From Eledone cirrhosa (Eukaryota): a stretch of DNA of 64,000 nucleotides. The stretch is taken from positions 107,012,001 through 107,076,000 of the forward strand of contig OZ024740.1 of the NCBI GenBank assembly GCA_964016885.1, read 5' to 3'. Every line of letters begins with the position of its first letter. Within the stretch, counting starts at the first letter, position 1. Below, one piece after another: positions 15,454-44,120 of the stretch. Both the position numbers and the translations under genes were made by a program. The notes beneath the pieces are model-generated. The model was not told the origin of the DNA, searched no databases, and saw nothing but the letters and a program-made list of their open reading frames with translations.

Positions 15454-16153
15454 GAAGAAGATTTTTCATGTGACAATTTAAAGAAAGCTAAATATATCTT
15501 GTAACAAAACTTAAAAGAACAGATTTTTCAGAGAGTGGTGGAACTATTAATGCTGGAGAATAATATTACCATTCTCCATTTACATCCATATTTCCATGCT
15601 GACATCATGGCTTGGACAGGTCATTACAGATCAAGTTAGTACTTAATTAGAGCAATTGTTCTCCTAGACAGGCAGTGGCCACATTTCACGTACATTCCAG
15701 TTTTTGGCATGGTCTCTACAGTTTGATGCCCTTCATTATGCAAACTACTTTACAGAATGTACAAGTCACATTTTATAATAGCACCAGTACTAGAGAGGTT
15801 GCTGTCTTTGATGTGACTAATGAGTTATCTCAGCTCTTTTTTGTATTGTTTCTATGGCTGGATGCTCTTCCTAACACCAACTACTTTACAGAGTAGTATT
15901 GAGCGCATTTTATCAAGACACCTGAACTAGCGAGACTGTCAAATCATTGACTTGACTATAGGACCAAGTATAATTTATAGTGGTACCAATACTTTTTATG
16001 AAAATGTATAAGATAAGATCGTAACACAATTACATAAATAGCTCTAAATTTAACATATGTTCTTACTTTTGATATCTTAAATATATATTTATGTTGATTG
16101 TCTATACTAAATATTTTAAAGCACTTAAAATGCCATAGAACTGTGTTACTTAC

Positions 16154-16474
16154 TAGTTTTATATCCACTTGGCACAATTGTGGACACCTTCACTCCCCAT
16201 CTTTCATTCTCAGCACGAAGAACCTCTGATAACATGAACAGGGCAGACTTTGAGCAGCAATATGCAGCCATCAAAGCTACTGGAGCTAAACCAGCGTTAC
16301 TGGATACATTTACTATCCGACCTTGGCTTCTCCGAAGTAAAGGTAGAAATTTGCGGCACAACAGGAATGGTCCACGAAAGTTGACATCCATAATCTTGAG
16401 GGAGTCATCGGTGGAAATCATCTCAGAATTTCCAATGTAACAAATTCCTGCATTGTTAACCAATCCCCACAGAG
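16154..16474 (-). CDS. SDR paralogue A exon 3 (catalytic: NNAG, VNVSS, YCCSK)
   Basis: Acceptor ttttttag, donor gtaagt, 321 nt, phase 1-1; SDR motifs. Confidence 0.9.
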
Positions 16475-17000
16475 CTAAAAAAAAGTAAAGATTCTAGAAT
16501 TAGACAAATAACTTATGAATCACATTGACCAAACAAAATGAAAGACAAAGCCATTGAACAATATAGGTATAGATACAATACAATAAATACATTAGAGATT
16601 ATTAAAAATGCACAAGCTGCAAATAAAGTATATTATATGAATCAAACAAGCTACAATTGCAAGACACTACACTAAAAGGACTAGATAAGAAACTGTTAGT
16701 GAATAACACATAGATACACTACAGAATTCCATACAAAAATAGAAAGAAACACATATAACAGAATAATATTAAAAGAAACACACTGATAACATACACTAGA
16801 CACAAACAAATATAGATATATGAATGATGACATATAAATCTACCAGTCGAAATTTAAATTCCAACAGTAATGTCACGAACAAACACAATGGTTACTATAA
16901 TGAATAAAAAAAATTTATCCTGAAGATGAGACTAAGAAAGTCATGAAACAAAGCTGATGAAACTGTAAAAATATAAAATAAACTTCATATATATATATAT

Positions 17001-17240
17001 AAATGTAATCTGAGTTTTTCTAATATTAATAATAATATTTGATTCATTTGAAATTATGCAAACAGCATCTTTTAAGGCATGTCAGTAGAATGAGCCCCTC
17101 ATTCTTCCATGTAAACAGTCTGTTTACATGCCAACAGAAGAGCAAGAATGGGGGGCTCATTCTACTGACATGGCTTAAAAGATGCTGTTTGCATAATTTC
17201 AAATGAATCAAATATTAAAATAACTCAGATTACATTTATT
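17001..17240. repeat. Inverted repeat of a pLTR-like family also at 29690-30060 and 33560-34270
   Basis: Arms gattcatttgaaattatgcaaacagcatc..gtcagtagaatgagccc and their reverse complement. Confidence 0.75.
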
Positions 17241-17261
17241 GTATTCAGCCATAACTTTTTG

Positions 17262-17308
<47 letters not shown>

Positions 17309-17309
<1 letters not shown>

Positions 17310-17820
17310 TAGCTAAAGTACCCGTCCTTTGGACGGTTCAAGTAGTTCATTAAACTAAACAAAGTAAATTTGAATACACAGAAGAAAAACGTACTTTATG
17401 TAAACCTTAGGCACTATTCCAGCGAAATAATTAATATGTGAGCTCAGTGTCATCCGTTATCCCATGTCACAACAGAAATCCAGTCTAGGTATACATTTCT
17501 TTGACAGCAGTAAAACCTTTTGTTTCAAGTACAAAGAGTAAAGTAAAATCCGATGAGCCGAATTGTAATAATCAAAATCAGCAAAGAAAATTTTTGACAA
17601 CATCAAAAATGAGTTCCTATTGTATTGACGAAAGATAACTCTTGTCTTACTTAATCACGAAAATTGACACAAATAACCGAAACTTTTTTAATGTCTCCAA
17701 AGGCGCCAATATCGATTTTTGAAAGCCTTTGTAGATCATGTACAGGTTTTGTGCAAGGAGAAGCTCTGTAAAATATTTCAAAGAAATCGCATGAATGGTT
17801 TAGAATATATGAGACCTCAT
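17309..17820 (-). mobile_element. Helitron 3' end (5' limit uncertain)
   Basis: Minus strand ccgtcc-aaa-ggacgg hairpin ~10 nt upstream of CTAG|T. Confidence 0.55.
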
Positions 17821-17988
17821 TAAAAATTGTCCACACACACATACAGAAAACTATATTTTTATATATATATACAAATATATATATAACGAAGGAGGTGTGG
17901 TAAGGAACCAGATGGACCAAAACGCACCAGATTACTCAATACTTAGGGTAGTAGAAATAGTCGTCGAAACGGCTTGAGCTCTCTTTCC

Positions 17989-18038
<50 letters not shown>

Positions 18039-18313
18039 AAGAGTAAAGACCCATTTCAGTCACGAGTGACCATGGGATTTGCACATAGAAAGTTGCATTC
18101 TGAGACACAAGTCTGGGCAGTATTGTTAGTGGAAGACCAGGAGTCACCCATGCATACCAGTCTGCTCTTCCCATGTCACTGATGGTGTCCAATGGAAAGG
18201 GAATGACCAATACAGCTTGGCACCAGTGATGTTGCAACTCATTTTACAGCTGAGTAAACTGGAGCAATATGTAAGCCTGATGCTTGTTTTAAATTCAAAT
18301 ATATATACATATA

Positions 18314-18990
18314 TATAATAGAATATAAAAGAAAAATGAACACAGATATATAGATATATGTGTTCAAATCGTAAGGGACCTGATTCGCTAAGGTGAAAAG
18401 AATACTAACTATTATAATATACGGCTCAGAAATATCTCTTTCTTAGAGCTATTGTGTTGTAAGAGACTATTTTGAGTTCCTAACTCAATATATACCTTTA
18501 ATATATTCGGCTCCGTTAATTTGTTGAGCTATTTCAAATGTCGAGTAGACCTGGCTGCTATTTTTAGTGGTGTGGGTTTGTGAGACTCGCTAGGATGCCA
18601 TGTGCACTGTTTTATATTTTATATATAGCATACATGGATGTGTCTACGATACTAATTCATCACTAATGAGCTTCGATTAGTATTTCTATTCACAATTAAC
18701 TTTGCGAAACAACAAGTTGTCTGGGTGATTGGTAGTTACCATAATTCCGGTTTGTATTTATTTTCTTCATTTTTTTCTTAAATTGAGACAAGCGAACCCA
18801 ATTGTCTATAGTTAGTATTCTTTTCACCTTAGCGAATCAGGTCCCTTACGATTTGAACACATATATCTATATATCTGTGTTCGTTTTTCTTTTATATTCT
18901 ATTATAATATACGGCTCAGAAATATCTTTTTCTTAGAGCTATTTTGTTGTAAGAGACTATTTTGAGTTCCTAACTCAATATATACCTTTA

Positions 18991-18992
<2 letters not shown>
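18314..18992. mobile_element. pLTR-like element with inverted and direct duplications and a degenerate hammerhead at 18657-18728
   Basis: 18314-18410 inverted vs ~18810-18910; 18411-18500 direct vs 18901-18990; CTAATGA-gc..gc-GAAA-CAAC aa GTTG-TC-tgggtga. Confidence 0.6.
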
Positions 18993-19071
<79 letters not shown>

Positions 19072-19330
19072 ATATTATAAATATATAAATATTATATATA
19101 TATTATATAATATATTATATATATTATAAATGTCACTAACATATCCTGGTTCATAATAAGGGTATAGAGACTGTACCAATTGAGTAAAAGTTTTTTTTAG
19201 ATTTTCACATGAGATTCTTGCAGTTCCATAGAGCCTATATATATATGTATATATATTGATGTACAGGAGAAATTTCTCCTTGTGCACTGATATTTTGATT
19301 ATATAGATTATACATATATATATATATATG

Positions 19331-20295
19331 GACAGCTTCCGTTACCCGGGTGACAAAATCAGCAGGGGGGAGGGTGCTCTGAAAGTACAGTAGCTAGAGT
19401 CAGAACTGGATGGAAAAAGTTCAGAGAGCTTATACCACTATTAGCCGCTAAAGGGTTCTCCCTAAAAATGAAAAGCAGGTTGTATGATGCCTGCATACGA
19501 ACAACAATGTTGCATGGCAGTGAGACCTGGGCATTGTGTGCAGAGGATATACGCAGACTAGAGAGGAACGAAGCTTGCATGCTCCGCTGGATGTGTAATA
19601 GTAATATACGTGAACGGCAAAGCATAAACGAACTAAGGAAAAAATTAGAAATAAGAGGGATCAGATGTTGTTTACTCGAGAGAAGGCTACGTTGGTATGG
19701 TCACGTGATGCGCATGAAAGACGACAGCTGTATAACAAAGTGCAGGGCAATAAAGATAGATGGTAGCCACGGAGTAGGCAGACCCAGAAAAACCTGGGAC
19801 GAGCTGATAAATTCCCACCTCACACACTTACACCTCTCCAAGACAATGTCACTGGACCGAGATCTTTGGCGGTACTCAGTAATAGAGAAGACCCGCCTTA
19901 CCTAAATACAAAGTAAAACCTACTACAGTCAGTAGGCATCTCTAACAAAATACACCCCTGTCCCACCACCCCCACCCCATCCACATCGCCCCTTTCAATG
20001 CAAAGTTATGTTGGTGCCACAACATCCAGGCCGAAACAAATGAGATCGTGTAGGTGTCATGACAAAAAACACACAGTCCACGCTGTAATGTGGCCGTGTA
20101 GGCAACACGGTAAAAACCTCCCAGCCCCACACTGTAAACGTGGTTGGTGTTAGGAAGGGCATCCAACTGTAGAAAACCTGCCAGACAGTCCTATGCGAGC
20201 AAGACAACCACTCTTGCCTCAAGTGGGAAAACCCCCGTCCAAACCCATGCAAGCGTGGAACATGGAAGTTAAACGATGATGATGATGATGATGAT
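19331..20295 (+). mobile_element. RTE-clade LINE, 5'-truncated, with 3' UTR and (GAT)n tail
   Basis: LYDACIRTTMLHGSETWAL..RRLRWYGHVMRM..GRPRKTW; tail aaacgatgatgat. Confidence 0.85.
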
Positions 20296-20399
20296 ATATA
20301 TACACACACATTTATATATAATAATAATAATTAGGGAACAAAGAATTAGTGTTCCATCATATTCATATTTAATCACATATTACACATGTTTCACTGCTA

Positions 20400-21402
20400 A
20401 TCAGCTGTGTGCAGAAGACCTACGAAGATTGGAAATAAATGAAGCTTGCATGCTTTAATGGATGTGTAATAGTAGTGTGCATAAATGACAAAGTGTAAAT
20501 AAACTGAGAAAGAGACTGGGCATAAGAGGGGTCAGATGCAGTGTGCAGGAGGGGAGATTGGATTGGTATGCACATGCGATGCATATGGAGGATGACAGCT
20601 GTATAAAAATGTGTAGGATGATGAAAGTTAATGGAAGCTATGGAGTAGGAAGAGCTAGGAAGACTTGGGATGAAGTGATAAAAGCTGATCTTGCCTAATT
20701 AAACCTATCAAAGGAGATGATACAGGATCGAGATCTCTCGTGTTATGCTGTACTGTAGAAGACCTGACTTCCCATGTGCACAAAATGAAACAACATATAA
20801 ATGTCACTTGTCAGCAACCAGCATTTCCCCATTCACCTTCCCTAGTCTTAATACCCTTGCCCTCACCAAATAAATACCTAATTCACCTCATCCATGTCCA
20901 ACTTGCATACTCCTTCCTCTCCCCACAATACATGTCATGTGGAACCCTTCTCATCATCCTTGACCCCTACATACAAGTGTGGAATGTAGGACACGCTCCA
21001 AACCTGGTCCATCCCACCTCCATAATGCTGTTTCCATGACAAAAGCACTTTGTTTACATCTCCCATGTCTTAACAGTCCACCAGCTAAGTACACCACATT
21101 AGACCTACTCCTCTAATCCGTATCCTGCATACACGCATCAAACCTCCTCTACCCTTCCACATCTTATACACCTCTCTTATGCAATCCATACATACAAGTG
21201 CAGAAAGCTGGACACGCTCCCCTACAATGCTGCTGAAATGGCTAAAAGCTCCCAGTCAACCCTGTAAAATGGTCATGCTGGTGACACAACAAAAAGCACC
21301 TAGTAATGTAACTGGCATTAAGAAGGGCATCCAGCTGTAAAAACTAAGCCAAAATCAGTTCTGTATAAGCGAGACAGTCATGATGATGATGATGATGATG
21401 AT
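20400..21402 (+). mobile_element. Degenerate RTE fragment with UTR and (GAT)n tail
   Basis: LCAEDLRRLEINEACML homology to the 19468 ORF; stops present. Confidence 0.65.
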
Positions 21403-21420
21403 GCTATATATATATATATT

Positions 21421-21456
21421 TCTTCTGATGAAGGACTAGCGTCCGAAACGTTAAGA
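21421..21456 (+). ncRNA. Minimal type I hammerhead ribozyme
   Basis: tctt-CTGATGA-a-ggac tagc gtcc-GAAA-CG-TT-aaga; palindromic ACGU stem III typical of Penelope minimal hammerheads. Confidence 0.75.
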
Positions 21457-21548
21457 CCCTCTTCCTGCTATATCAAGTGTTAACCTAATATATCCCTTCC
21501 ATATACTGTACCAATTGTGTTGTTATTTCTGTTTACCTTCTACATACG

Positions 21549-21598
<50 letters not shown>

Positions 21599-21619
21599 TA
21601 TACATATATATATATATAT

Positions 21620-21693
<74 letters not shown>

Positions 21694-21706
21694 GTGTGTG
21701 TGTATG

Positions 21707-21739
<33 letters not shown>

Positions 21740-21740
21740 G

Positions 21741-21778
<38 letters not shown>

Positions 21779-21853
21779 TTCAAGTGAATGTTAAAAATAC
21801 TATTGTACTTAAAACATTGAAACATTAATTGAATGAACACATTCCATACTCAC

Positions 21854-22066
21854 GTTCTTCACCTAAAGTGTTTTTAACCTTTTCAAAAGCGTACTCAACT
21901 TGATCCAACTCTGATACATCCAGCTGCAAGATATGAAGCCTTGTAGAACATTTTTGCTGCAAAGAACGAGCACCCTGACCATCTTTAAACAGACATCCTG
22001 CAAACACAGTAAATCCCAACCTATCGAGTCGGACAGCAAGCCCATGGCCAAATCTTTGATCACAAC
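21854..22066 (-). CDS. SDR paralogue A exon 2
   Basis: Acceptor ccctcatcag, donor gtgagt, 213 nt (same as gene B exon 2); GCDQRFGHGLAVRLDRLGFTVFAGCL..LQLDVS. Confidence 0.9.
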
Positions 22067-22151
22067 CTGATGAGGGTAAATATTTAAAAAATTAATTACA
22101 TGGTAATGGTGGGGTGGGGTGGGATGTGATCATACTGGGGGAGATGATAGA

Positions 22152-22180
<29 letters not shown>

Positions 22181-22185
<5 letters not shown>

Positions 22186-23198
22186 TAAATTTAGTCCTTC
22201 ATCAGTGATTTTCCAACCTCCATTGGTATTTCATCGCTTTAAAGACCATATACCTCTTGTTGGTGCGAGCAATGGCTAAAGAAAGTCGTTGGGACACATA
22301 AATAGGGGGAACGAGTGAGACAGTAAACAATCAAATATGGTAATGCAATGAAAAGTGAGGAAGAAGGAGTCAAGTCCCTGAAATCGATGAACATAAGTTC
22401 TGTGAAATCGTGGACGAGAGAGAATAAAGACCATCAAACCTGGTCGAAATGTGAGTAAGGAAAGAATTTCGCACAGGTCAAACGGGAGGAAGTAGGAGAG
22501 GGAGTAGCAGAGAGTGAGTGAAAGTGTGAGGAAGAGGCTAACAGAGAGAGTGACTGTTAGGAAGTGAGAGATACAGAGAAAAGGGGAAGCAGTAAGAAAG
22601 AAACAGACGGGTCACAGCGGAGGAAAATATATATGAATATGAAAACATGGCGTGCTGCGTGATTGCAAATGGGTTACATATGAATAAATTTAGTCCTTCA
22701 TCAGTGATCTTCCAACCTCCATTGGTATTTCATCGCTTTAAAGACCATATACCTCTGGTTAGTACGAGCAACGGCTAAAGAAAGTCGTTGGGACACGTAA
22801 ATAGGGGGAACGTGCGAGACAGTAAACAATCAAAAATGGTAATGCAACGAAAAGTGAGGAAGAAGGAGTCAAGTCCCTGAAATCAATGAACATAAGTTCT
22901 GTGAAATCGTGGACGAGAGAGAATAAAGACCATCAAACCTGGTCGAAATGTGAGTAAGGAAAGAATTTCGCACAGGTCAAACGGGAGCGTTGCATTATCA
23001 TCTTTGATTGTTTACTGTCTCGCTCGTTCCCCTTATTTACGTGTCCCAACGACTTTCTTTAGCCGTTGCTCACACCAACCGGATTTATATGGTCTTTAAA
23101 GCGATGAAATACCAATGAAGGTTGGAAGATCACTGATGAAGGACTAAATTTATTCATATGTAACCCATTTGCAACCACGCAGCACGCCATGTTTTCAT
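22181..23198. mobile_element. Direct (period 499) plus inverted repeat unit in (TA)n, pLTR-like
   Basis: 22181-22488 ~ 22680-22987; 22990-23198 is the reverse complement of ~22636-22847; carries a CTGATGAaggac half-hammerhead. Confidence 0.65.
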
Positions 23199-23219
23199 AT
23201 ATATATATATATATATATA

Positions 23220-24170
23220 TCATCATCATCATCACTGTTTAATGTCCATTTTTTCCACATTATCATGGGTTAGACAAGTTGTCTCATTGTGAGACAAGCC
23301 ATGTCTTACTCATACAGAACTGATTTAGGCTTGGTTTCTACGGCTGGATGCCCTTCTTAACATCAATCACATATACAGAGTTGACTGGGTGCTTTTTATT
23401 GATACCTACACATCTTTACAGTGTGGACTGGGGGCTGTGGGCGGAGTGGGTGAGATGCATGTGGATTGGAGAGGTAGATCTAGGATGGGGCACTTATCTA
23501 GTGAAGGATAGGGTGTTAGGACATGGATGGAGTGTTAGGACCCAGGAGGTGTATTGAGGGAGAAGGGGGAGGTAAGGGAAAGTGGTGCATATCAGAGGTA
23601 TGCATCAACCTATGCGCATGAGAAGGCAGGTCTTTTGTATTACAGTATATGCCAGAGATCTTGATCCTGTGTCATCGCCTTTGAAAGGTGCAATTGTGCA
23701 AGGCCAGCTTTTATCAGCTCTTCCGAAGTCTGTCTAGATTTCCCTATTCCAAAGATTCCATCAACTTTGAATGCCCTGCATCTCTTTATACAACTGCCAT
23801 CCTTCATATGCATCACATGTCCATACCAACACAATTTCCTTTCCTGCACACTGCATCTGATCCCTCTTATGGCCAGTTTCCTCTCTCAGTTCATTTATGT
23901 TTTGCCACTCATGTATATTACTATTACACATTCTTCGAAGCATGCCAGCTTTCTAATCTTTGTAGGTCCTTTGGACATAGTACCCATGTTTCACTACCAT
24001 GTAACATAGCTGCTCATATACAGACATCATATAATCTGCCCTTTATTTTGAGGGAAAAAGGCTTTTGTAGCTAGCATAGGCACACCTACCTCTACTGCTA
24101 GTTTGGTCACTCAGGTAACAGAAGCTGTCAACTGCTTCTACAGAACCTTCCAAGAATTTGGTAGCACGTG
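23220..24170 (-). mobile_element. Degenerate RTE fragment with 3' UTR and (GAT)n tail
   Basis: ERKLCWYGHVMHMKDGSCIKRC homology. Confidence 0.7.
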
Positions 24171-24532
24171 TTTGCTGTGAGTGGTTGATTTCTCTCAACT
24201 ATCAACCACATACATTATATATATATTAACAATCTGCAGTAGATACATGGTATGATGTAGAGTGGTATATTAGTAAAACGAGCAGAAACCACCGAACTCG
24301 CAGTCAATCCTCTACTTTTAATAATGTATATATAATCCACCCTGCTAAGTGGGAAGGAAGGGCAACCAGTTGTTGAAAACCAAGCCAAAGAGGATCTATG
24401 AGCAAGAAATAGTCACCTAACCTGTCTAACCTCCCATGCAAAGCCTATTTATGCCCAGCTTATTTTTAGGACCCTCTTCCCAGTTTGCCTCTAACTCTTT
24501 TCCTATTCCTCTATCTCTTTTCTCTCTCTCTT

Positions 24533-24570
<38 letters not shown>

Positions 24571-26391: not shown

Positions 26392-26416
26392 TCTATATAT
26401 TGCTAAAATTCTGTGA

Positions 26417-26448
<32 letters not shown>

Positions 26449-26934
26449 CTGTAATGTAATACAGCTAAAAGGGCACATAATGGGAAAATATTTTGAAAGA
26501 AAGTTGGCCCTGAAATGGGAATACAAATGGAATAAAACAAGTTTCGCATAAATCGGACCACGGCTTCCTAAGACATGGGGTTTTTCCGGGACCCTTCATA
26601 AACAGAGAGAGAGAAAGAGAGCCATAGAGAGAGGGAGAGGAGACAGAGTAGGAGAATGGAAGAGAGAGAGTTGGTGTTGTTGTGTATATAGATATGTGAG
26701 TGTGTGTGCATATATATATATATGTGTGTGTGTGTGTCTATGACCAGTGTATATAGATCACTGACCCCCACATATATATACACACAAACATATATATATA
26801 TATTTATATACACACGTATATATATATGGGCTTTCCAGTTTCATTTCACATTATATACATGTCTGTGTATATTCTAATTATTTAAAAATTATTTTTAAGT
26901 GATCATGTGGCTCAACGGGTCACGGGTGGTCTAG
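26392..26934 (+). mobile_element. Non-autonomous Helitron; partial second copy at ~27871-28290
   Basis: A|TCtatatattgctaaaa 5' end, (TTGC)n, 3' hairpin gtggctc-aac-gggtcac then CTAG|T. Confidence 0.65.
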
Positions 26935-27029
26935 TATATATATATATGTGTGTGTTTAATGGTAGCTATGATGCTTCCATAGTCGGTATGCCAGTTGAGC
27001 CCTCTATGTTCTTACAGAGCAGAGTGTGA

Positions 27030-27164
27030 TATAATATAAAACGAAAAATCAGTGATGCATCTGGACTCAGTTTATTGTGTGTTACAATTGTTTCGCCACC
27101 GCCAAAACAATTGTAACACACAATAAACTGAGTTCAGATGCATCACTGATTTTTCGTTTTATAT

Positions 27165-27168
<4 letters not shown>
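27030..27168. repeat. Palindrome of ~60-bp arms built on a hammerhead 3' half
   Basis: Arms aaacgaaaaatcagtgatgcatc..gttacaattgttt; minus strand gcGAAA-CAATTG-TA-acac. Confidence 0.75.
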
Positions 27169-27248
<80 letters not shown>

Positions 27249-27836: not shown

Positions 27837-28284
27837 TAAAACATGTCTATAGAATCACAAGATAACTATATATTGCTTGCTTGTCTGTAATGTAATACAG
27901 CTAAAAGGGCACATAATGGGAAAATACTTTGAAAGGAAGTTGGCCCTGAAATGGGAATACAAATGGAATAAAACAAGTTTCGCATAAATCGGACCACGGC
28001 TTCCTAAGACATGGGGTTTTTCCGGGACCCTTCATAAACAGAGAGAGAAAAAGAGAGCCATAGAGAGAGGGAGAGGAGACAGAGTAGGAGAATGGAAGAG
28101 AGAGAGTTGGTGTTGTTGTTGTGTATATAGATATGTGAGTGTGTGTGCATATATATATATGTGTGTGTGTGTGTCTATGACCAGTGTATATAGATCACTG
28201 ACCCCCACATATATATACACACAAACATATATATATATATATATACACACATGTATATATATGGGCTTTCCAGTTTCATTTTAC

Positions 28285-30541: not shown

Positions 30542-30607
30542 TATTTTGTCTGAGGAAGGCATACCATATTTTTAATATGATATCCCAGAAATATATATAA
30601 CGAAATA
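30542..30607 (+). ncRNA. Type I hammerhead ribozyme motif
   Basis: tattttgt-CTGAGGA-aggcataccatatt ttt aatatgatatccca-GAAA-TATATA-TA-acgaaata; tail inverted around (TA)n at 30785-30917; truncated sibling at 46810. Confidence 0.65.
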
Positions 30608-30735
30608 AATATGGTTTTATAAATATAGTTTCCATTTGTTTAATATCGTAAACCTACTCCAAAAACTGTTGAGTGCTTTTATATCAGTTATAAAATATTT
30701 ACTCGTTGTAACCCAACAATTTTAAATAAAACTTT

Positions 30736-30787
<52 letters not shown>

Positions 30788-30915
30788 AAAGTTTTATTTA
30801 AAATTGTTGGGTTACAACGAGTAAATATTTTATAACTGATATAAAAGCACTCAACAGTTTTTGGAGTAGGTTTACGATATTAAACAAATGGAAACTATAT
30901 TTATAAAACCATATT

Positions 30916-30961
<46 letters not shown>

Positions 30962-31729: not shown

Positions 31730-32066
31730 CTGCAACAAGTATAGCTTTGTTGTTGATATTCAACATCAGTTTTCTTAGATTCATGTGTGTCAGCAGGAAG
31801 ACAAGGCTAATGATAATGATATGCCTCATGTAACTATGCTGCACTGACCAACTGTTGGATATCCAGTATATAGCTAACACTGCAGTTAGTTTCATTAGGA
31901 GGCACAGCCTGGCCTTAGTCTGTGGCAATTTCAGTGCTAGGTAGCAGATACACAGATATAACAACTCCTTTGTTACAAACAAGTTCTGAAATATTTCAAT
32001 GTTTTCTTCATTGTGGCTGGCTTTCCTGGTCTGAGAACTAACAACATTATTAATTATTGAAAACAT
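31730..32066 (-). CDS. SDR paralogue A exon 1 (hydrophobic N-terminus, ends NKAILVAG)
   Basis: caccATG context, donor gtaagt, 337 nt phase 1; aligns with gene B exon 1 (LLY..CYL.LKL, LMKL..LA.YW, NKA.L..G). Confidence 0.8.
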
Positions 32067-32320: not shown

Positions 32321-32357
<37 letters not shown>

Positions 32358-33513: not shown

Positions 33514-33546
<33 letters not shown>

Positions 33547-33912
33547 TTTTTTTTGCTCTACATGGCTGAATACAATAAATGTAATCTGAGGTCTTTGAAT
33601 ATTAATAATTGTTTCTACTTTTGGCACAAGGCCAGCAATTACCCAGAACATTACTGGTACTTCATTTTATCGACCCCGTAAGGATGAAAGGCAAAGTTGA
33701 CCTCGGTGGGATTTGAACTCAGAATGGAAAGGGCCGTAACTCTATGCGTCAAAGCATGGTGTCTGACCCTCTACCCATACTGCCAATCCACCGTCATTTT
33801 GAATATTAATAATAATATTCGATTCATTTGCAATTATGCAAACAACCTCATTTTTAAAGCCATGTCAGTAGAATGAACCCTTCATTCTTGCATGAGTGTT
33901 GGCATGTAAACA

Positions 33913-33962
33913 GAACTACAGACACTAATGTTTCTGGGTATTACTCTTCATCAGTACAGTTC
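33913..33962 (-). ncRNA. Type I hammerhead ribozyme motif
   Basis: gaactgta-CTGATGA-a gagt aat accc a-GAAA-CATTAGTG-TC-tgtagttc; decayed sibling at ~29762-29812. Confidence 0.65.
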
Positions 33963-36129
33963 ATTCTTCACCTACCAACTGTCAGAGCTAGTGAAAATAT
34001 ATGATATTTTCTAAAATATACAGTGACTGATTGGCCTGACTTGCATATTAGCAGATTGGCGGATCAGTCAGATCTGAATATTAGCAGATCCACTGATCAG
34101 CCAGATTTGCATATCAGGAGACTGGCCAGTCAGTAGAATGAGCCCCTCATTCTAATAACATGACTTTAAAAATGAGACATGTTTGCATAATTGCAAACAA
34201 ATCGAATATTCATCATCATCGTTTACGAAAAACTCAGATTACATTTATTGTATTCAGCCATGTAGAGCAAAAAAAGTAAGAGGAACCAACAGTTCATTCA
34301 CTGGAACTTTAATAATTAATCACAATCATTAGATTTCTACTTTTTTTTATGTTTCATATTCAAATATTGAACATAATATAAGAAAATAAAAACAGTACAC
34401 ACTACACAAAGTAGTTATGAACACGGAAAAGGAAGGCAATGGCAAGGGCTTTAGGGTCACAGAAGAATCATCATCACCGTTTTACATCCGTTCTTCCATG
34501 TGAGCATCGCTTAGACGGGTTGTCCTGTTGTGGGCAGTGTCTGGTCAGCTGACCTTGTCTTGCTCATATGGGAACTGATTCTGGCTTGATTTCTACAGCT
34601 GGATGCCCTTCCTAACACCAACCTCATTTACAGTGAGTGCTGGGAGTTTTTTTTTCCGTGGCGCCTAGACGTCCACTTTACAGTGAGTGCTGGGTGCTTT
34701 TTTTGCTGTGGCACCTCCACGACCACTTTGCAGTGGAATGATAGGGACTCCAGTCCTACCATCTCATTTCTACAGCTGAGTAAACTGGAGCAATGTGAAA
34801 TAAAGTGTCTTGCTCAAGGAAACAACACATCACCCAGTCCAAGAATTGAACTCACAACCTTTCAATTGCAAGCCCAATGCTCTAACCACTAAGCCATGCG
34901 CCTTCATCAAGAATGGGGAGCGTAATGGGCTCTGGGCCTAGGGTGCAGTGGTATTGAGACTGCGCGCCATGGACAAGACCACAAAAGCATTCCTGCATAC
35001 AATGGCTAGCGTTACCCACTGCAACAGCCACCCCACCTCGCGGGGCTCCTTCCTCAGATGGGCTGCTGATGTTCCGATCTTGCGGAGGAGTTCAGCAGTA
35101 TGGAATCCAAGTATGCCTGTGATCTTAATGGCAACCGGTGCGAAAAGTGACCAGACAATCCCCTGTATTTGTAAGAAACAACTTAATTGATATATTAGAT
35201 TAAACTTAAGTAGTTAGTGACATCTATCAATTAACCCTTTTGGTTCCAACCTGTCTGAGCCTCTCAATGCATGGCTAATTAACTGGAAGTTTACATTCAC
35301 CATGCAATAGATCAATGAAAACATTCCATAATAAACCTTAGTTGATCAGTGGGTCATAATGTGAAATGTTTGACAATGTGGAAACTGTGATGTTCATGCC
35401 TTTCCCAAGGACTTCCTTTTATTCTTACTGATTTTAGTCATTAGACTGCAGCCATGCCTTGACACCACATTAAAAAGATTTATTTGATCATACTGAACCT
35501 GATACTTATTTATTGATCTCCTTTTGTCAAACTGTTAAGTTATGGGATATAAGTAAACACAGGCACAGATACATATACACAAATATTGTCATCATGATTA
35601 TGATGATGTTTATCATCATTTAATGTCCATCTTCTCTGTTAGCAAGGATTGGATGTGTCTTCACAGACCAAGACAGTACTGATGAGGTCTGAGGGGAGGC
35701 TACATCTCACTTACATTCCTGCACTCCTGCAAGTGTATTTTATCATGACACAATGTTCTGATGTCTTTGACACAGCTGAAGAGTCTTCCAAACCCTTTGT
35801 TTGGCAGATTTTATATGGCCCATAGTATCAAAAGGCATGTGGCTGAGTGGTTAGAGAATTGTATTCACAATCGTTAGGTTGTGAGTTCAATTCCCAGACT
35901 GGGTGAGACGTTATGTCCTTGAGCAAGACATTTTATTTCACATTGCTCCTTCTACCTGGAGTTGCAACCGATAGATAGTATTAGCAATTGGAAAGACCAA
36001 TGGAAACATTGTTTCCTCAGTTTGATTTGACGAAAGTCAATCGACTGTCAATAGTATCAGAGCTGTGATCTCTCGATTTGGAGAAGTAGCAGCTCTACCT
36101 GGAGTGACTCTTTGATCTCCAAGCTACGC

Positions 36130-36780
36130 ACTCAATTTAGTAATATTACTCCAAAAACTCTTCAGAGGAACCCCGATTCAGTTACTTGTATTTGTAATCG
36201 TATTCTTTTGGTCATTACCCAAGATTGATGACCATAGCTAAGAGTTGGCATGAATACCAAATTGAAGATAGTGAGTTTGGTTTTTACACCTACCTTCTTC
36301 TTATTACCAAATACTGAAGTTGGTGCATTACTGCACCAGCTTCCACAATTTTTGCACTTAATTTAATTGGCTGTGCTATGTCCAGGGCAAAAACTGTACT
36401 GTTCATCAGCTAGCTTGGACTCAACAATCTCCCTACATCTCTTTGACAGACACTTAGCATAGATTTTATCGGGGAGGTCTAACAAGGAAATCTCTCTGTA
36501 ATTAGAACAATCTCTCTTGTCTACCATTTTGAAAATAGAAATTATCACTCCTGATTGTCATTGCTTAAGTGCCTTTCCATAGACCAAGGCCACCCGGCAC
36601 ATACAAGTCAACCTGAGAATACCTTCTCTATTTAAGGCTTTTAACATCTCATGCCGGATTTCATCTTCCCCAGTGGCCTTACCACATCTGAGCTCTTTGA
36701 CTGCTGCTCTTGTGACCTCAGCCTCTGAGAAATAAGTCACCACTCTCAGATGCACCTCCTGTACATCAGCAGATGCTGTT
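36130..36780 (-). mobile_element. Degenerate LINE RT fragment (RTE-like)
   Basis: GKATGEDEI..DCSNYREISLLDLPDKIYAKCL..EQYSFCPG. Confidence 0.7.
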
Positions 36781-36994
36781 GTAATTGGTTTCAAATATAT
36801 TGCAGTCTCCATGTCATGCTGCAAACACTGGTGATGGGCCTGTGACCTGTCCTGCAAGACATGGGATGGACACAAAATGATTGCGTATCCCATGACCCCG
36901 AAGACTGTCCAGAAGGGAGCAAACCGTGACAACTGGACTTAAGAGGCATTGGAAAAATTTGAAATTCAAAATGTGCATATCCCAACATGCAAAC

Positions 36995-37595
36995 ATCATC
37001 ATCATCATCATCATCGTCGTTTAACGTCCGTGTTCCATGCTTGCATGGGTTTGGACGGGAGTTTTCCCACTTGAGGCAAGAGTGGTTGTCTTGCTCGCAT
37101 AGGACTGTCTGGCGGGTTTTCTACAGTTGGATGCCCTTCCTAACACCAACCACATTTACAGTGTGGGGCTGGGAGGTTTTTACCGTGTTGCCTACACGGC
37201 CACATTACAGCGTGGACTGTCTGGCAGGTTTTCTACAGCTGGATGCCCTTCCTAACACCAACCACATTTACAGTGTGGGGCTGGGACGTTTTTACCGTGT
37301 TGCCTACACGGCCACATTACAGCGTGGACTGTCTGGCAGGTTTTCTACAGCTGGATGCCCTTCCTAACACCAACCACATTTACAGTGTGGGACTGGGACG
37401 TTTTTACCGTGTTGCCTACACGGTCACATTACAGCGTGGACTGTGTGTTTTTTTTTCGTGACACCTACACGATCTCATTTGTTTCGGCCTGGATTTTGTG
37501 GCACCAACATAACTTTACATTGAAAGGGGAAGTGTGGATGGGGGGGGGGGGGGGTATTTTGTTAGAGATGCCTACTGACTGTAGTAGGTTTTACT
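36995..37595 (-). mobile_element. RTE 3' UTR copy with internal 3x 112-bp tandem array (37102-37443)
   Basis: Matches 19915-20290; unit starts at 37102, 37214, 37326. Confidence 0.8.
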
Positions 37596-38483
37596 TACGA
37601 CCATGATAATAGTTGATCACTACAAATAATAGTTGCAAAGATTGGTTGATAGGAAAACGTGGACAAGGAATCTTCTGGATTCCAAGCAAGAGCTTTAATC
37701 ACTGCACAAAACCAATTCTGTTGTTTGTTTGTTTTTTTGTTTGTTTGTTTTCACTATTTTAATCCTGATTAATCCCCTTTATAGACTGAGTTCAAATCCC
37801 ACTGAGGTTAACTTTGCCTTTAATCCTTTGCCTTAAATCCGATAAAATAAAGTACCAGTAATGCACTGGGGTAATTGCTGGCCTTGTGCCAAAAGTAGAA
37901 ACAATTATTTTAATCCTGATTCCTGAAGTGGAATGAAAGCAGTTAACAAAAGAATCATTGGGAAAATTTGAAATTTGTTCATCCCAACTCAAATAACAAT
38001 AATAGTACTCGATCACTATTAATAAGACAGAATTAGTGGCCTGTGGCTCTTTAATGTAGTCGTTAATGCATTCGCCTGACATCTGAGAGATGTGGGGTTC
38101 GGCTTCTCGCAGATGCCTGTCCCCTTTTTGTTTTTATCTTCAGAGGTGGTACCTCACCTGATTTTCTCAACAGTGTGACTGAATCTGAAACCACTTGGCT
38201 GCATACTACACTCCTTACACACACACAGCCATGCCTACAGCTATAAATTCCTCAATAAACTGGACCTCTACAGTCACTCACATCTATTCTTCATATGTCA
38301 AAATTGTCAAATAAAATATTGATTTCTTAATTCTAAATGTAGGCAGAAGTTGATAGAATGACACTGGAAGGAAGAGGATAACATTCAATTTAATCAACCT
38401 TCAATACATTACTGGTGTAGAGTTGATCTCACCACAGTTTTGCCTCGGAACCACTCATGAAAATTGGTTTTATAAATAAAGTG

Positions 38484-38826
38484 TACGAGAGTCAGCTGAA
38501 ATGTTCATAGGCTGACTATGAAGGATTGATACTAGAGCTGTGAAATCTTGCATGCATTAATTTCAACTCTTCTCCTCTTCTTATTAATAACTGCATTGTT
38601 TCTTTCTAGGGACTATGTTGAAAAATAAACCTCATTTGGTCATTCCATGAGAGTGTCTTGGTCAGAGTGATGCTGGAGTTGTGAAATCTTGCATGCATTA
38701 ATTTCAACTCTTCTTATTAATAACTGCAATGTTTCTTTCTAGGAACTATGTTGAAAAATAAGCCTCATTTGGTCATTCCATGAGAGTATCTTGGTCAGCC
38801 TATGAACTTTTCAGCTGCCTATTGTA
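38484..38826. mobile_element. Mariner-like MITE with ~140-bp internal duplication
   Basis: TA-cgagagtcagctgaaatgttcataggctgac / gtcagcctatgaacttttcagctgcctattg-TA. Confidence 0.65.
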
Positions 38827-39404
38827 TGTTAATACAAACCAAGGATAGGATTAAGTTGGAAACTGTACTGATTCTTCCATTAAATATTTTACAAATATTT
38901 TACAAAACAAATTTTATTCAAAAATAAATTTTATTAAAAAGTGCTCTAAAAAGAGACTATTTTTTTGTAAATAAAATTTTGTACAAAAATATATAAAATG
39001 TTTACAAATAATTTGGTATTGTAAAATATAAACAACAAAAATAATAATCAGTTTCTTTATAGATACTGATAACAAAAGAGTTATTCAGAGATGTGAATTG
39101 TGAATTTGACAAGCACACGTCTTAGACTAGGAATTAATTATCAAATTAATCATTGAGAATCTGAATTTTAATTAAAAAAAAGTTTTAATTTTAAGTTGAT
39201 CAGATTAATTTATTAATAAGACTAAAAGTTCAAATATTCGTTTTCTGGGGGGGGTTCTATTTTTGTAATCAGTGAAACTAGTTAATGTTGTATTGATGAA
39301 CATATCGAAAATTAATTTGCATAATTTGTATAAACATTGGAAATAACATTTATATATATATATATATAAATTAGACAATTATCAAAGTTGTGTTCAAATC
39401 ATTT

Positions 39405-39456
39405 AATAGCTGACAATCGTTTCTTCCAAACTTTCGTTTGGAGTCATCGGAGCATT
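39405..39456 (-). ncRNA. Hammerhead-like motif (U4C)
   Basis: gct-CCGATGA-c tccaaac GAAA gtttgga a-GAAA-CGATTG-TC-agc. Confidence 0.55.
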
Positions 39457-39654
39457 ATCAATGTTTGTACTTATTCCTGCTCTGTAAAACAACTGATGTT
39501 CTTACATTGAGCTATTTCTCTTACTGGTAATAAGGTAGTAGGAAATTACTGAACTTTCCTGTTTATAGTTGTTTATATACATAACTATAAATAGTATTAT
39601 TATTATATATATATATATTATCTGCATGTACATATGGTCTGTATGTGTATGTTG

Positions 39655-39691
<37 letters not shown>

Positions 39692-39784
39692 ACACTTACA
39701 CACACACACACAGATATTTTCAATACCAGGAACTTTGGTATTTTGTACTCTTTGATCCATTCAAAAGTACAAGTTAATTTTGTG

Positions 39785-39820
<36 letters not shown>

Positions 39821-39924
39821 AATAGAAGTTATATACACATGTATATATACCTCTACATATATGCATGTCTATGTGTGTATATACGTATATACATACACAC
39901 AAACAAATGCATATATATGTGTGT

Positions 39925-39965
<41 letters not shown>

Positions 39966-40399
39966 CACACACACAAATACATGCACAATCACATACATTT
40001 ACATATACATGCAGCTTCTTTTCAAATGCCAATGTTATACACATATATCCATTATAAATTCAATTTGGTTGGGTGGGGGGGGGGGGGGGGTTCTTATAAG
40101 TATTATTGTTGCGATGCTGGAGAATTAGGAAAATAAAGAGTCTGTTTATGTAGGTACAGCTACATAAATGGTGACACTAAAATGTTGCTCTCCTGATTAT
40201 AGGGAACTAAAGCATTGTAGAATGGACGCACAGTATCCTTGTATATCATAAGAGATGACTAAAAGGGTACTGCCAAGAAAGATATTTGGTCATAAAACAT
40301 AACAAAAGAAACCCTGTAATGAGCATGATTATACCAAGCATGGAGCATCCACATGGCTACATAGGCACTGGTTATAAAATAATATAATAATGAAATTAT

Positions 40400-40850
40400 T
40401 GTGTAAAGTGCTCAGGTGCACTACAACTCATCAAAGGTGCATGTATAGTACATAGAATAATATACAAATGTCAGGGAAGTGAATAGTGTATGAGTCATGA
40501 TATACATGTGTGTATGTGTATGGAGGGGGAACATTAGGTGTAGTGTTGGCGAACCTCAGGAAGCATGGAGGCCTTAAAGGATGCAGTGTCTTGACAGCTA
40601 ACAACTGATGCTGGGAGTTTGTTCCATGCTTCAGCAACTCTGAGCGTGAAAAGATGTTTCCGAAAGTCATGGGAGCTGTGCTGTTTTCTGACTTTGTGGG
40701 CATGCCCACGTTGTGTTACACACATGGAAATCAAAAAGGTACTCAGGGTTGTTGTTGGCAAGATGGTTAATAATTTTATGGGTGTTTACCAAGTCAGTTG
40801 CCAGACGTTATAAACTAGAAGAACCATTTCACTGATTACTCAACAGCTTT
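40400..40850 (-). mobile_element. CR1/L2-type LINE 3' fragment
   Basis: TQRGHAHKV..FRKHLFTLRVAEAWNKLPASVV C-terminal motif. Confidence 0.7.
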
Positions 40851-40993
40851 ATAAAATATGTCAGTTTTATTGATCTGATAACAAATTGATAAATATAAAT
40901 TTTAAAAATATAATTAACATTATTTACATTATTTATAATAGATTCGAAATATGATAAATATAACTGTATATTATATATATATATATGTACGTG

Positions 40994-41044
<51 letters not shown>

Positions 41045-42100
41045 TTATATGTATGTATATATGTGCATATTTATATATATATATATATATGATTATTTAT
41101 GCAACCCAAATTGTGTATATGGGTTTACTTACTTCAACAATTGTTGAAACTTTTAAAAGAGTCTACCTGCCATTAGGAAGATTGACTTTAAACGTGGCTT
41201 GATGCAGATAGCTTGTACTACTTCTCCATCAAACAAGATAACAAAAATATACATTGATGATGATGGTGATACATTATAACTTTCTTCAATGTACATTATT
41301 TATCTGCCATATCAACAGTCAACCTATATTGATTTACTGAAATGCCAGCAGTCAATCAGTATTGGTTAAGTGCCATACTAGCAGTCACTTAGTATTGGTT
41401 AGACATAATAACAGCAGTGAATTAGCCTTGGTTAACTGTAATACCAGCAGTTAATCAATATAATTTTACTGCCATGCCACCAATATTTTGCAAAAGAACA
41501 GCTACCCACTCAACACTGCTTATAAACAAATATATGTTCTTGAACATTTTTGTTTTTGATTTGTTTCTATTTAAAAAATCTTCAAAAATATTAAAATTCT
41601 GTGTATCTTATTAAAACAGATACATATATTTCTGACTTTGAGGGGTTCTTTTTGTGTGTGTATGTGGGGAGGATTTAATTTTTTTTAAATGTAAATTTTA
41701 ATATCAATGTAAATTTCAGGCAAAACAAAAATGAAGTTCAAGACCGATGCCCTAGCATGGCCCCAGCCAGTCGGCTGAAACATGTAAAAGAATAACCATT
41801 CTTACTTCCAAGGAAAAAAACATTTCTCACAACCTGGAAGAGATTTCCTTACATCAGCGTCGGACCAAAAACAAAAGACATCTAGTCAAAAAAAAATGTT
41901 CAAATGTCACGAAGCTGAACAGAAGTCCTTTACAAAATACAAAATCAAGTCACAAATGAATTCAAAGGAATTCCTTACAAAATCTTTTTGAGTGCAGTTT
42001 AAGGAAACTGCTTTGCTGGCAAATGATTCTGCAAGTAAAAAAAATACCAGTCTTTAAAATGAATTCTTATAGTTCATTTCTTTAAAGTTCAGATTTTTTT

Positions 42101-42330
42101 TTATTTTCCTTCTTGTTCTTCTTGTAAACAGGAAGGCTGGAACTCAAACCAGTCAGCTAAGATGTGCATCACAGGCTGTCTTAGAATGGTCGGTAAATGC
42201 ATATAGCAGAATGGAATGACACGCGAAAGAAATCCTTTGTAGTAAACCAACTGAGGATTTTGTGAAAGAAGTCCATCAATCATAGCATTGATTACAGGTG
42301 AAATATCAGCTGATAGCATATCATCAGAGT
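42101..42330 (-). CDS. SDR gene B exon 5 (last)
   Basis: Acceptor ctacttccag; DSDDMLSADISPVINAMIDGLLSQNPQLVYYKG..EGK*. Confidence 0.9.
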
Positions 42331-42723
42331 CTGGAAGTAGAAGGGGAGAAAAAGAATCCATTAGACTTTGATCTTTGGTTTGATAACAATTCTCAATAAA
42401 TTATGTATCAAAATGTTTGATTAAAGTAGAGTTTAAATATTCCTTTATTATGACTCTTGTTTGATGATCCTGCAAGTGCGCAGGTGAAACTCCAGAGCAA
42501 ATAGACTCATTACTTAGCTATAATAAAGGAATATATATATGTATACATACTTCTAAATATATAAGCCTCAGTATTTTAATTTTCTCTTTACAAAAGATTA
42601 AATTTTAAACAACATTTAACCTAACAAATAATTAACAGGTTCAATACCAATTAAAATACACAAGTTTTATGAAAACACTCTAGACAGTGTAATGTAATAT
42701 ATGACATATAATTAAATACATAC

Positions 42724-42837
42724 CTCCTGCTTTAGGTTTGGCAATAAAGGATTCTTGTCCAAAATCTTCTTTGACAATATTTGGTGCTTCTGCCCACCAC
42801 TTCTCAGCCATCTTTTCTTTGTTATATGCTATAATTC
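42724..42837 (-). CDS. SDR gene B exon 4
   Basis: Acceptor ttttcaacag, donor gtatgt, 114 nt; GIIAYNKEKMAEKWWAEAPNIVKEDFGQESF resembles the SDR9C W...P..VKEDYG motif. Confidence 0.85.
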
Positions 42838-42929
42838 CTGTTGAAAAGAAATGGTTGAATATTGTTAATCCTGCAGTCAAAATGACATATGTATGTGCAT
42901 GTATATACACACACATACACACATAGATT

Positions 42930-42972
<43 letters not shown>

Positions 42973-43464
42973 ATTTGCTTGTTGGAAACAATAGTAATAG
43001 TAATAATGGTTCAATTATCTACTCTTTGGTGACCAAACTGCCTAAAACCACCCCTGGTTCTATGATACAAAATTGTCTATTTTAAAGTGTTTATATTTAT
43101 CTCATCATAACATTATGTAAGAACTTTTATGTTATGTTTCAAATACTAGCTTAATAATGAACAAAAATAGTTATTTTACAAAATCTTACAAAATTCTTCA
43201 TTATTTTCAAAATTACTTCAAAATTATATGCTATCTTTCATTAGAAATATGGTAATGAAAGGATTAAACTATTTTTTAATTATCAAATTGGTTTAAAATT
43301 ATCTGTATATGTATTTTAAGTTTTGATTAATAAATATAATTATCAAATATTTCCATATATGTAATTTAATGTTTAGATTATGAAATAGATTTGAATACTA
43401 ATTTTCCACTTAAAAAATAATAATGATTATGTTTTATAAAATGCCATAGAACTGTGTTACTTAC

Positions 43465-43785
43465 CAGTTTTATATCCACTTGGCACAATTGTGGACACCT
43501 TCACTCCCCATCTTTCATTCTCAGCACGAAGAACCTCTGATAACATGAACAGGGCAGACTTTGAGCAGCAATATGCAGCCATCAAAGCTACTGGAGCTAA
43601 ACCAGCGTTACTGGATACATTTACTATCCGACCTTGGCTTCTCCGAAGTAAAGGTAGAAATTTGCGGCACAACAGGAATGGTCCACGAAAGTTGACATCC
43701 ATAATCTTGAGGGAGTCATCGGTGGAAATCATCTCAGAATTTCCAATGTAACAAATTCCTGCATTGTTAACCAATCCCCACAGAG
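43465..43785 (-). CDS. SDR gene B exon 3 (catalytic)
   Basis: LWGLVNNAG..GRIVNVSS..YCCSK..GVKVSTIVPSGYKT; canonical ag/gt. Confidence 0.93.
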
Positions 43786-44120
43786 CTGGAAAACCAAAAA
43801 GAATGAACAATAAATTTTTGAATACTTAAAACAAATTTTAAAAAATTATTTTTGATTGTAACTTAGAAAAGAGTTAATTATTAAAAATATAACTGATTAA
43901 AATGATAAATTAATTATCAAAAAAGTTATCATCATCATCCTTTTATACCCATTTTTCCAGGGAAGTTTTGGCATTTCTTCATCCATAGGCAGCACACTGC
44001 ATCTCATTTCTCTTGTACCCAGTTTTTCTCTCAGCTCATTCATATTTTATCATTCATACACACAGACATACATCTACAAAAAATTCTTTGTAAAATAAAA
44101 AAAATAATACTTCAACTTAC

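What the first reader, a model, noticed from the sequence alone, without database searches (positions are those of the whole stretch)
16126..43787. Catalytic exon near-identical (350/351 nt) between two otherwise diverged SDR paralogues: exon-limited gene conversion
Seen: 16126-16476 and 43437-43787 match at all but one base, the last exon base (A vs G). The tract covers exon 3 (NNAG..YCCSK), the acceptor AG and ~28 nt of downstream intron, then stops abruptly. Exon 2 is only ~58% identical in protein (41/71, hand count), exons 1 and 5 are visibly diverged, and the introns are unrelated. Inference: recent or recurrent conversion homogenising only the active-site exon across 27 kb, making gene A a mosaic enzyme. 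Synonymous identity argues against selection alone.
Basis: partly seen in the sequence, partly recalled or inferred. Interest (0 to 1): 0.85.

Follow-up and report, generated by a model that had tools for sequence, protein, structure and literature searches.

The report
Octopus enzyme genes share one exon
Two old, very different neighbouring dehydrogenase genes of an octopod carry the same catalytic exon almost letter for letter, most likely because one keeps being copied onto the other by gene conversion, a known process, and one of the two genes lacks its next exon in this assembly and is probably decaying.

Summary
Observation confirmed: 16126-16476 and 43437-43787 match at 350 of 351 bases; the genome search finds only these two copies. 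The tract is exon 3 (321 nt), its acceptor AG and 28 nt of intron in two tandem HSD17B2-like SDR genes of an octopod. Exon 3 has 0 differences at 74.7 synonymous sites; exons 1, 2 and 5 are near or at saturation. Read-derived contigs join copy A's own intron to the exon without differences, so an assembly error is unlikely. Octopus sinensis and O. vulgaris paralogues also match in exon 3 (103/106 aa, against 53-65% in exons 2, 4, 5), which suggests long-running conversion but is not proven at protein level. Exon 3 holds 78 of 100 predicted dimer-interface residues. Verdict: a real, clean new case of segment-limited concerted evolution (as in TLR1/TLR6, BMP8A/B), not a new mechanism.

The parts
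16126..16476 (-). Shared tract, copy in gene A: acceptor AG (16476-16475), exon 3 (16474-16154), 28 nt of intron (16153-16126)
   Evidence: 612-nt read contigs 15865-16476 with 0 differences
43437..43787 (-). Shared tract, copy in gene B: acceptor AG, exon 3 (43785-43465), 28 nt of intron 3
31730..32066 (-). Gene A exon 1 (ATG; predicted membrane helices; last full codon gives T112A in the cofactor motif)
21854..22066 (-). Gene A exon 2 (Rossmann fold); codon AGA at 22055-22053 gives G117R in TGxxxGxG
12661..16125 (-). Gene A interval where exon 4 is expected and not found; holds (TA)n runs and an old dispersed repeat (about 14130-14635, best other copies 79-84%)
12446..12660 (-). Gene A exon 5 (in frame with exon 3 if exon 4 is absent; ends in TGA)
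45492..45864 (-). Gene B exon 1
44121..44333 (-). Gene B exon 2 (intact TGCDRGFG motif across the exon 1/2 junction)
42724..42837 (-). Gene B exon 4 (114 nt, phase 1-1; helices after the last core strand)
42101..42330 (-). Gene B exon 5 (ends in TAA)

Best explanation
Two old tandem SDR paralogues share a 351-base tract at 350 positions, likely because non-allelic gene conversion has repeatedly copied exon 3 between them, the last time very recently, and gene A lacks exon 4 in this assembly and is probably decaying. Shown: the identity, its limits, saturation of the other exons, the missing exon 4, the altered cofactor motif. Inferred: a double-strand break in one exon 3 is repaired off the copy 27 kb away. 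Exon 3 is the only exon that is both long (321 nt, above the roughly 200-nt efficient-pairing length) and slowly evolving, so it alone stayed alike enough to keep pairing, while introns and the other exons drifted out of reach. Each event resets the identity and permits the next. No selection for conversion is needed. B is the likely working enzyme; direction of the last event is unresolved.
For: Exon 3: 318/318 nt, 0 of 74.7 synonymous sites differ; exon 2 dS 1.66, exons 1 and 5 saturated. 28 intronic bases are shared, which protein selection or a spliced cDNA donor cannot give. Quartet sites (winA, winB, O. sinensis A, B): exons 1, 2, 5 group by paralogue at 22, 13, 20 sites and by species at 1, 1, 0; exon 3 groups by species at 2 sites and by paralogue at 0. 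O. sinensis and O. vulgaris A/B: exon 3 103/106, exons 2, 4, 5 53-65%; about 8-24 differences expected in O. sinensis at exon-3 rate ratios of 0.13-0.45 (P 0.046 to 5e-9). Two copies, same order B then A in the fused O. vulgaris model. 2 of 2 other SDR paralogue pairs fetched from this genome show no such exon (70%; 74-82%). Conversion mainly needs over 80% identity and about 200 bp (PMC3924818, passages), so a recent event between saturated genes points to earlier events. Decay of A: no exon 4; G117R at a column invariant in 15 of 15 other rows, T112A; last exon base G to A.
Against: Recurrence rests on proteins only; no relative's DNA for exon 3 was available. Exon 3 can be nearly static in this family between orthologues: Patella and Haliotis differ at 4 of 106 (ratio 0.08), which would make 3 differences in Octopus unremarkable. 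The exon-3 tree has weak support (winA+winB 76). Gene A has no stop or frameshift in 362 codons, canonical GT/AG sites, and no long branch (0.10 vs 0.19 for O. sinensis A); other rows also carry 0-3 private changes at conserved columns. The absence of exon 4 was not checked on reads.
Confidence: 0.64

Rival explanations
1. One recent repair event: a break or deletion in gene A was patched by invading B at the start of exon 3, copying exon 3 and 28 nt of intron, then end-joining to the far side, which would have removed A's exon 4 in the same step. The Octopus similarity is then plain purifying selection.
For: The tract starts at the acceptor AG, where homology starts, and ends 28 nt into the intron with no flanking homology. 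Exon 4 is missing just downstream. One mismatch in 351 and few lesions in A fit a young event.
Against: Needs pairing of exons that would have been about 75-80% alike (my estimate from saturated synonymous sites). Octopus A and B share the derived I18. The shared exon has D22 and I27 like Octopus A, unlike 5 of 5 other B rows (O. sinensis, O. vulgaris, O. bimaculoides, Argonauta, P0006); a B donor fits only if this species branches outside them (not rejected, AU p 0.105). Not exclusive of earlier conversion.
Confidence: 0.17
2. Selection keeps the conversion going because A and B form heterodimers through helices alpha4 and alpha5, both in exon 3, while cofactor, lid and membrane parts diverge; in this species A would be a catalytically dead partner of B.
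For: Exon 3 is exactly strand-alpha4-strand-alpha5-strand in the model of O. sinensis A. O. sinensis B with A scores 0.90, best of 3 controls 0.00; runs agree in at least 92% of contacts, partner pLDDT at least 86; the mark was reached by 51 of 78 solved and 2 of 108 mismatched microbial pairs (eukaryotes 71 of 105 and 2 of 126). 40 of 49 (B) and 38 of 51 (A) interface residues lie in exon 3. DHRS9, the closest solved relative, dimerises through alpha4/alpha5 (PMC12538056, passages).
Against: The pass may come from likeness to solved SDR dimers and shows likeness, not binding; close relatives are untested in that tool's calibration. The window's own A was not folded. The interface exon is also the catalytic exon, so the neutral account predicts the same place. 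No co-expression shown.
Confidence: 0.13
3. Assembly or polishing error pasted B's exon 3 into A.
For: Runs X1 and X3 are one sample and may be the assembly's source; their contig stops at 16476, so the intron-2 junction of A is not bridged there.
Against: 612-nt contigs in X1 and X3 run from A's own intron 3 through A's own base at 16154 and the whole exon with 0 differences; a contig of another organism (X5) joins A-type intron 2 to the exon start. Two other Octopus assemblies show the same exon nearly shared. An exon between saturated genes would not cross-map unless already alike (inference).
Confidence: 0.04
4. Purifying selection alone, or a recent whole-gene duplication.
For: Exon 3 is the slowest exon in 10 of 10 comparisons (ratio 0.08-0.73).
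Against: 0 of 74.7 synonymous differences and 28 shared intronic bases; other exons saturated and A orthologous to Octopus A (100/100; AU p 2.5e-7 against winA+winB).
Confidence: 0.02

Closest known systems
TLR1/TLR6 segment-limited gene conversion (PMC2077338, abstract read)
   Same: Old tandem paralogues; one fixed segment is closer between paralogues than between orthologues; partner binding offered as the reason.
   Different: There about 300 aa, shown in nine mammals at DNA level. Here one 321-nt exon flanked by unrelated introns, shown at DNA level in one genome, and one copy is damaged.
BMP8A/B, DDX19A/B, TUBG1/2 long-term mosaic concerted evolution (PMC2720389, abstract and Discussion read)
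   Same: Two copies under 250 kb apart, mosaic pattern, heterodimer or shared-partner hypothesis called speculative by the authors.
   Different: Their screen required a conserved intron; here only 28 intronic bases are shared. Here the tract maps onto a predicted dimer interface; they saw no clear domain overlap.
Yeast whole-genome-duplicate pairs with conversion confined to coding sequence (PMC3924837, section 4 part 1 of 2 read)
   Same: Purifying selection keeps coding DNA alike enough for conversion after it has stopped in non-coding DNA: the neutral account preferred here.
   Different: Here it is narrowed to a single exon of a five-exon animal gene.
Argonaut tyrosinase and reflectin clusters (PMC9635652, passages read)
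   Same: Proposed partial gene conversion in tandem genes of an octopod.
   Different: Four-gene clusters, over 1,000 nt shared; not an SDR and not a single-exon tract.
SDR9C-like dehydrogenases (DHRS9, PDB 9B2F/9B2G; HSD17B2-like by database name)
   Same: adh_short domain, NNAG, YxxxK, alpha4/alpha5 dimer; E 1.7e-38 to 9b2f.
   Different: Substrate untested; the name estradiol 17-beta-dehydrogenase 2 is the source's automatic label. Window gene A fails the cofactor motif and lacks exon 4.

Membership tests
Non-allelic gene conversion tract | Segment far more alike than the rest of the paralogues, including neutral sites | tested here: met
   0 of 74.7 synonymous sites and 28/28 intronic bases; other exons dS 1.66 or saturated
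Non-allelic gene conversion tract | Duplication older than the tract; orthologues of both copies in relatives, same arrangement | tested here: met
   winA+OsinA 100/100, B clade 99/99; B then A in the fused O. vulgaris model
Non-allelic gene conversion tract | Copy number unchanged, both copies at their native exon position | tested here: met
   2 copies in G000; no other exon-3 remnant in the window; none in 10 kb either side
Non-allelic gene conversion tract | Not an assembly error (long reads across both copies) | tested here: inconclusive
   Contigs bridge A's intron-3 junction only, one sample; no long reads laid
Long-term (recurrent) concerted evolution | Segment groups by species in several lineages at DNA level | tested here: inconclusive
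   Protein only: 103/106 in two Octopus species, 2 by-species sites against 0 by-paralogue; Patella/Haliotis stasis is a counter-example
Long-term (recurrent) concerted evolution | Raised GC from biased conversion | tested here: inconclusive
   Exon 3 GC3 0.41; other exons 0.26-0.48
Classical SDR, gene B | TGxxxGxG, NNAG, YxxxK, full domain, open frame | tested here: met
   416 codons without stop, motifs present; Pfam adh_short on exons 2 and 3
Classical SDR, gene A | TGxxxGxG cofactor motif | tested here: not met
   T112A and G117R
Classical SDR, gene A | Complete C-terminal region (exon 4) | tested here: not met
   Best local score 32 in the interval, 121 for B exon 4; genome search finds only B's. 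Not checked on reads
HSD17B2 orthologue with steroid activity | Orthology to vertebrate HSD17B2 and 17-beta oxidation | not tested
   Name is the databases' label

The most novel reading that the evidence does not exclude
Exon 3 has been converted again and again across octopod evolution because it encodes the SDR dimer interface, and in this species gene A has turned into a pseudoenzyme (no cofactor motif, no lid exon, frame intact) whose interface is kept identical to B by conversion, so that it binds and regulates the active enzyme.
Probability: 0.08. Interest if true: 0.72.

Novelty: new member of a known kind. Interest (0 to 1): 0.4.

Why it matters
It is an unusually sharp example of concerted evolution shrunk to one exon between genes whose other exons are saturated. 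The exon is also the predicted dimer interface, so the pair could test an idea the literature calls speculative: that conversion is kept up to preserve binding surfaces, against the neutral view that only the longest conserved exon can still pair. It also warns that trees or read mapping on this exon misplace the paralogues, and that a damaged copy can look healthy at its active site.

Tried and rejected
Metagenome scan for cephalopod DNA: 80 loci kept of 233 relatives, none above 46% identity, not used. Sequencing-run search: no RNA holder listed. Contig depths not used as copy number. X5 has no cover over most of exon 3, and X1/X3 none at 16500-16549; holes prove nothing. A second A-type full-length protein was not found besides O. 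sinensis P0002 and the O. vulgaris fusion (only a 61-aa exon-2 fragment, P0104); missing annotation is no evidence of loss. Idea that the unnamed Logan proteins P0007/P0011 are A orthologues and P0008/P0010 B orthologues, giving a second converted lineage: unresolved (AU p 0.25; octopod A+B clade 67/77), dropped. Self-tblastx was swamped by microsatellites. Spliced-cDNA donor rejected: intronic bases are in the tract and neighbouring exons are not. Exon shuffling with a left-over old exon 3: none found. A young transposon as cause of exon 4 loss: the repeat there is old. GENECONV was not run. Earlier findings: nothing returned.
Full report
OBSERVATION. The two stretches match at 350 of 351 bases; the difference is 16154 T / 43465 C. 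A DNA search of the window's own assembly (3.0 Gb, 1,796 contigs) returns these two places only. On the minus strand the tract is the acceptor AG, a 321-nt exon and 28 nt of the next intron. The 400 nt on each side align no better than shuffles (p 0.19, 0.17).

WHAT THE GENES ARE. The exon's closest named relatives are Octopus sinensis, O. bimaculoides and Argonauta hians proteins labelled estradiol 17-beta-dehydrogenase 2(-like), 92-97% identical, so this is an octopod. Gene B (45864-42101) has five exons and an open frame of 416 codons. Gene A (32066-12446) has exons 1, 2, 3 and 5. Outside exon 3, window A groups with O. sinensis A (100/100) and window B with the other B proteins (99/99); forcing the two window genes together is rejected (AU p 2.5e-7; 16 rows, 257 columns, N-terminal unalignable columns and near-duplicate rows left out). 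An O. vulgaris model fuses B and then A, so the order is conserved. The duplication is older than the split of these octopods; whether it predates the split from the unnamed Logan proteins is unresolved.

EXON 3 AGAINST THE REST. A vs B: exon 1 156/336 nt, exon 2 129/210 (dS 1.66), exon 5 117/210, exon 3 318/318 with 0 differences at 74.7 synonymous sites. Selection on protein cannot do this, nor keep 28 intronic bases. A spliced cDNA donor is excluded by those bases. One difference in 351 is 0.0028 per site (95% range 0.00007-0.016): very recent. That base is derived in A, since Gly stands there in 15 of 15 other rows.

IS IT AN ARTEFACT? Contigs of runs X1 and X3 (one sample, possibly the assembly's source) of 612 nt cover 15865-16476 with 0 differences, joining A's own intron and A's own base to the exon, and end exactly at the tract border. 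A 2,301-nt contig of a second sample (X4, kind not on record) fits only 16155-16474 with 0 differences, as a spliced B-type transcript would. A contig of another organism (X5) joins A-type intron 2 (25 other letters, 4 gaps in about 250 nt) to the first 26 exon bases. No long reads were laid. An error is unlikely.

RECURRENCE. In O. sinensis and O. vulgaris A and B share 103 of 106 residues in exon 3 but 53-65% in exons 2, 4 and 5. In the quartet of window and O. sinensis genes, exons 1, 2 and 5 group by paralogue at 55 sites, by species at 2 and crosswise at 1 (247 columns); exon 3 groups by species at 2 and by paralogue at 0 (106 columns). Scaling by exon-3 rate ratios of 0.13, 0.25 and 0.45 predicts 8, 14 and 24 differences in O. 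sinensis (P 0.046, 2e-4, 5e-9; for O. vulgaris 0.098, 1e-3, 2e-7). Against this, Patella and Haliotis differ at only 4 of 106 here (ratio 0.08, lowest of 10 pairs), so protein stasis alone is possible. Conversion mostly needs over 80% identity and about 200 bp (PMC3924818, passages), so the recent event is easier to explain if earlier ones kept the exon alike (inference). Two other SDR pairs of this genome show nothing similar: 70% at the catalytic exon for a pair about 90 kb apart, 74-82% over three segments for a pair 40 Mb apart.

DIRECTION. At exon sites 22 and 27 both window copies have D and I, like Octopus A; 5 of 5 other B rows have A or T and L. That points to A as donor unless this species branches outside those five, which the B tree does not reject (p 0.105). 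Published octopod relationships are weakly resolved (PMC5813590, passages). Unresolved.

GENE A IS DAMAGED. O. sinensis and O. vulgaris A have exon 4. In the window the O. sinensis A exon-4 peptide scores 121 on B's exon 4 and at most 32 between A's exons 3 and 5; two genome searches find only B's exon 4, plus one match at E 0.85 with a stop. A also has G117R at a column invariant in 15 of 15 other rows, and T112A, both in the TGxxxGxG cofactor motif (motif as in PMC12538056). Exon 3 joins exon 5 in frame, with no stop in 362 codons, and A's branch is not long, so any decay is young. Other rows carry 0-3 private changes at such columns, so the count alone is not unusual. The loss was not checked on reads.

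STRUCTURE. In the model of O. sinensis A (pLDDT 71, 15-row alignment) exon 3 (185-290) is strand, helix 205-233, strand, helix 254-276, strand; exon 4 gives the three helices that follow. DHRS9, the best solved match (E 1.7e-38), dimerises through helices alpha4 and alpha5 (PMC12538056, passages). O. sinensis B with A scores 0.90, best of 3 controls 0.00; runs agree in at least 92% of contacts, partner pLDDT at least 86; the mark was reached by 51 of 78 solved and 2 of 108 mismatched microbial pairs, 71 of 105 and 2 of 126 in eukaryotes. The pass may come from likeness to solved SDR dimers. 78 of 100 named interface residues lie in exon 3. This makes heterodimers possible, not shown.

MECHANISM. 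Most likely (0.64): repair of breaks off the neighbouring paralogue, able to persist only in the one exon that is long and conserved, with A now decaying. Rivals: a single patch repair that also removed exon 4 (0.17); selection for a shared dimer surface (0.13); artefact (0.04); selection alone (0.02).

WHAT IS KNOWN. Segment-limited concerted evolution is described for TLR1/TLR6 (PMC2077338, abstract), BMP8A/B, DDX19A/B and TUBG1/2 (PMC2720389, abstract and Discussion), yeast duplicates (PMC3924837, passages and section 4 part 1 of 2), newt sodium channels (10.1101/2021.03.25.437018, abstract) and argonaut tyrosinases (PMC9635652, passages). I found no account of this pair: four accession numbers gave 0 papers; SDR with gene conversion gave 5 listings, none on it; cephalopod and octopus HSD searches showed none among 20 listed of 113 and 20 of 351 (listings only; passages of PMC12965858 gave nothing on it). 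Most subscription journals are not in the library and no supplements were read.

VERDICT. Interest 0.40.

Noticed in passing
window 53322-57256 and 60012-64000: Two tandem copies, 92-98% alike, of a non-LTR retroelement with endonuclease, reverse transcriptase and zf-RVT domains; an ORF at 57380-58792 (-) has a zinc-knuckle-like stretch. 'Tx1-like' is my recalled label.
   Followed up: partly
window 3008-3320 / 4657-4969; 1-164 / 592-755; 22183-22488 / 22682-22987; 26448-26603 / 27884-28039: Short local duplications at 96-99% identity, 0.5-1.6 kb apart.
   Followed up: no
window 30604-30919 and 48162-48516: Perfect inverted repeats with arms of 158 nt (no spacer) and 175 nt (5-nt spacer).
   Followed up: no
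P0062 (O. vulgaris CAI9723554.1): The 675-aa model fuses gene B and gene A into one protein; probably an annotation error.
   Followed up: partly
P0009, P0068 (unnamed Logan proteins): Relatives that lack the exon-2 segment in frame, like an exon-skipping isoform without most of the cofactor fold.
   Followed up: no
P0020 (Patella) and P0024 (Haliotis): The exon-3 segment differs at only 4 of 106 residues while exons 2, 4, 5 are 0.51 apart.
   Followed up: partly
window 49787-50260 (+) and 52747-53355 (-): ORF fragments that recall Penelope-type endonucleases (from memory); the second had no Pfam match, the first was not scanned.
   Followed up: no
L083, L084, L088 (G000 C15, C3): Other SDRs of this genome have the matching catalytic region ending near residue 245, apparently split by an intron; the converted pair has it as one 321-nt exon.
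   Followed up: partly
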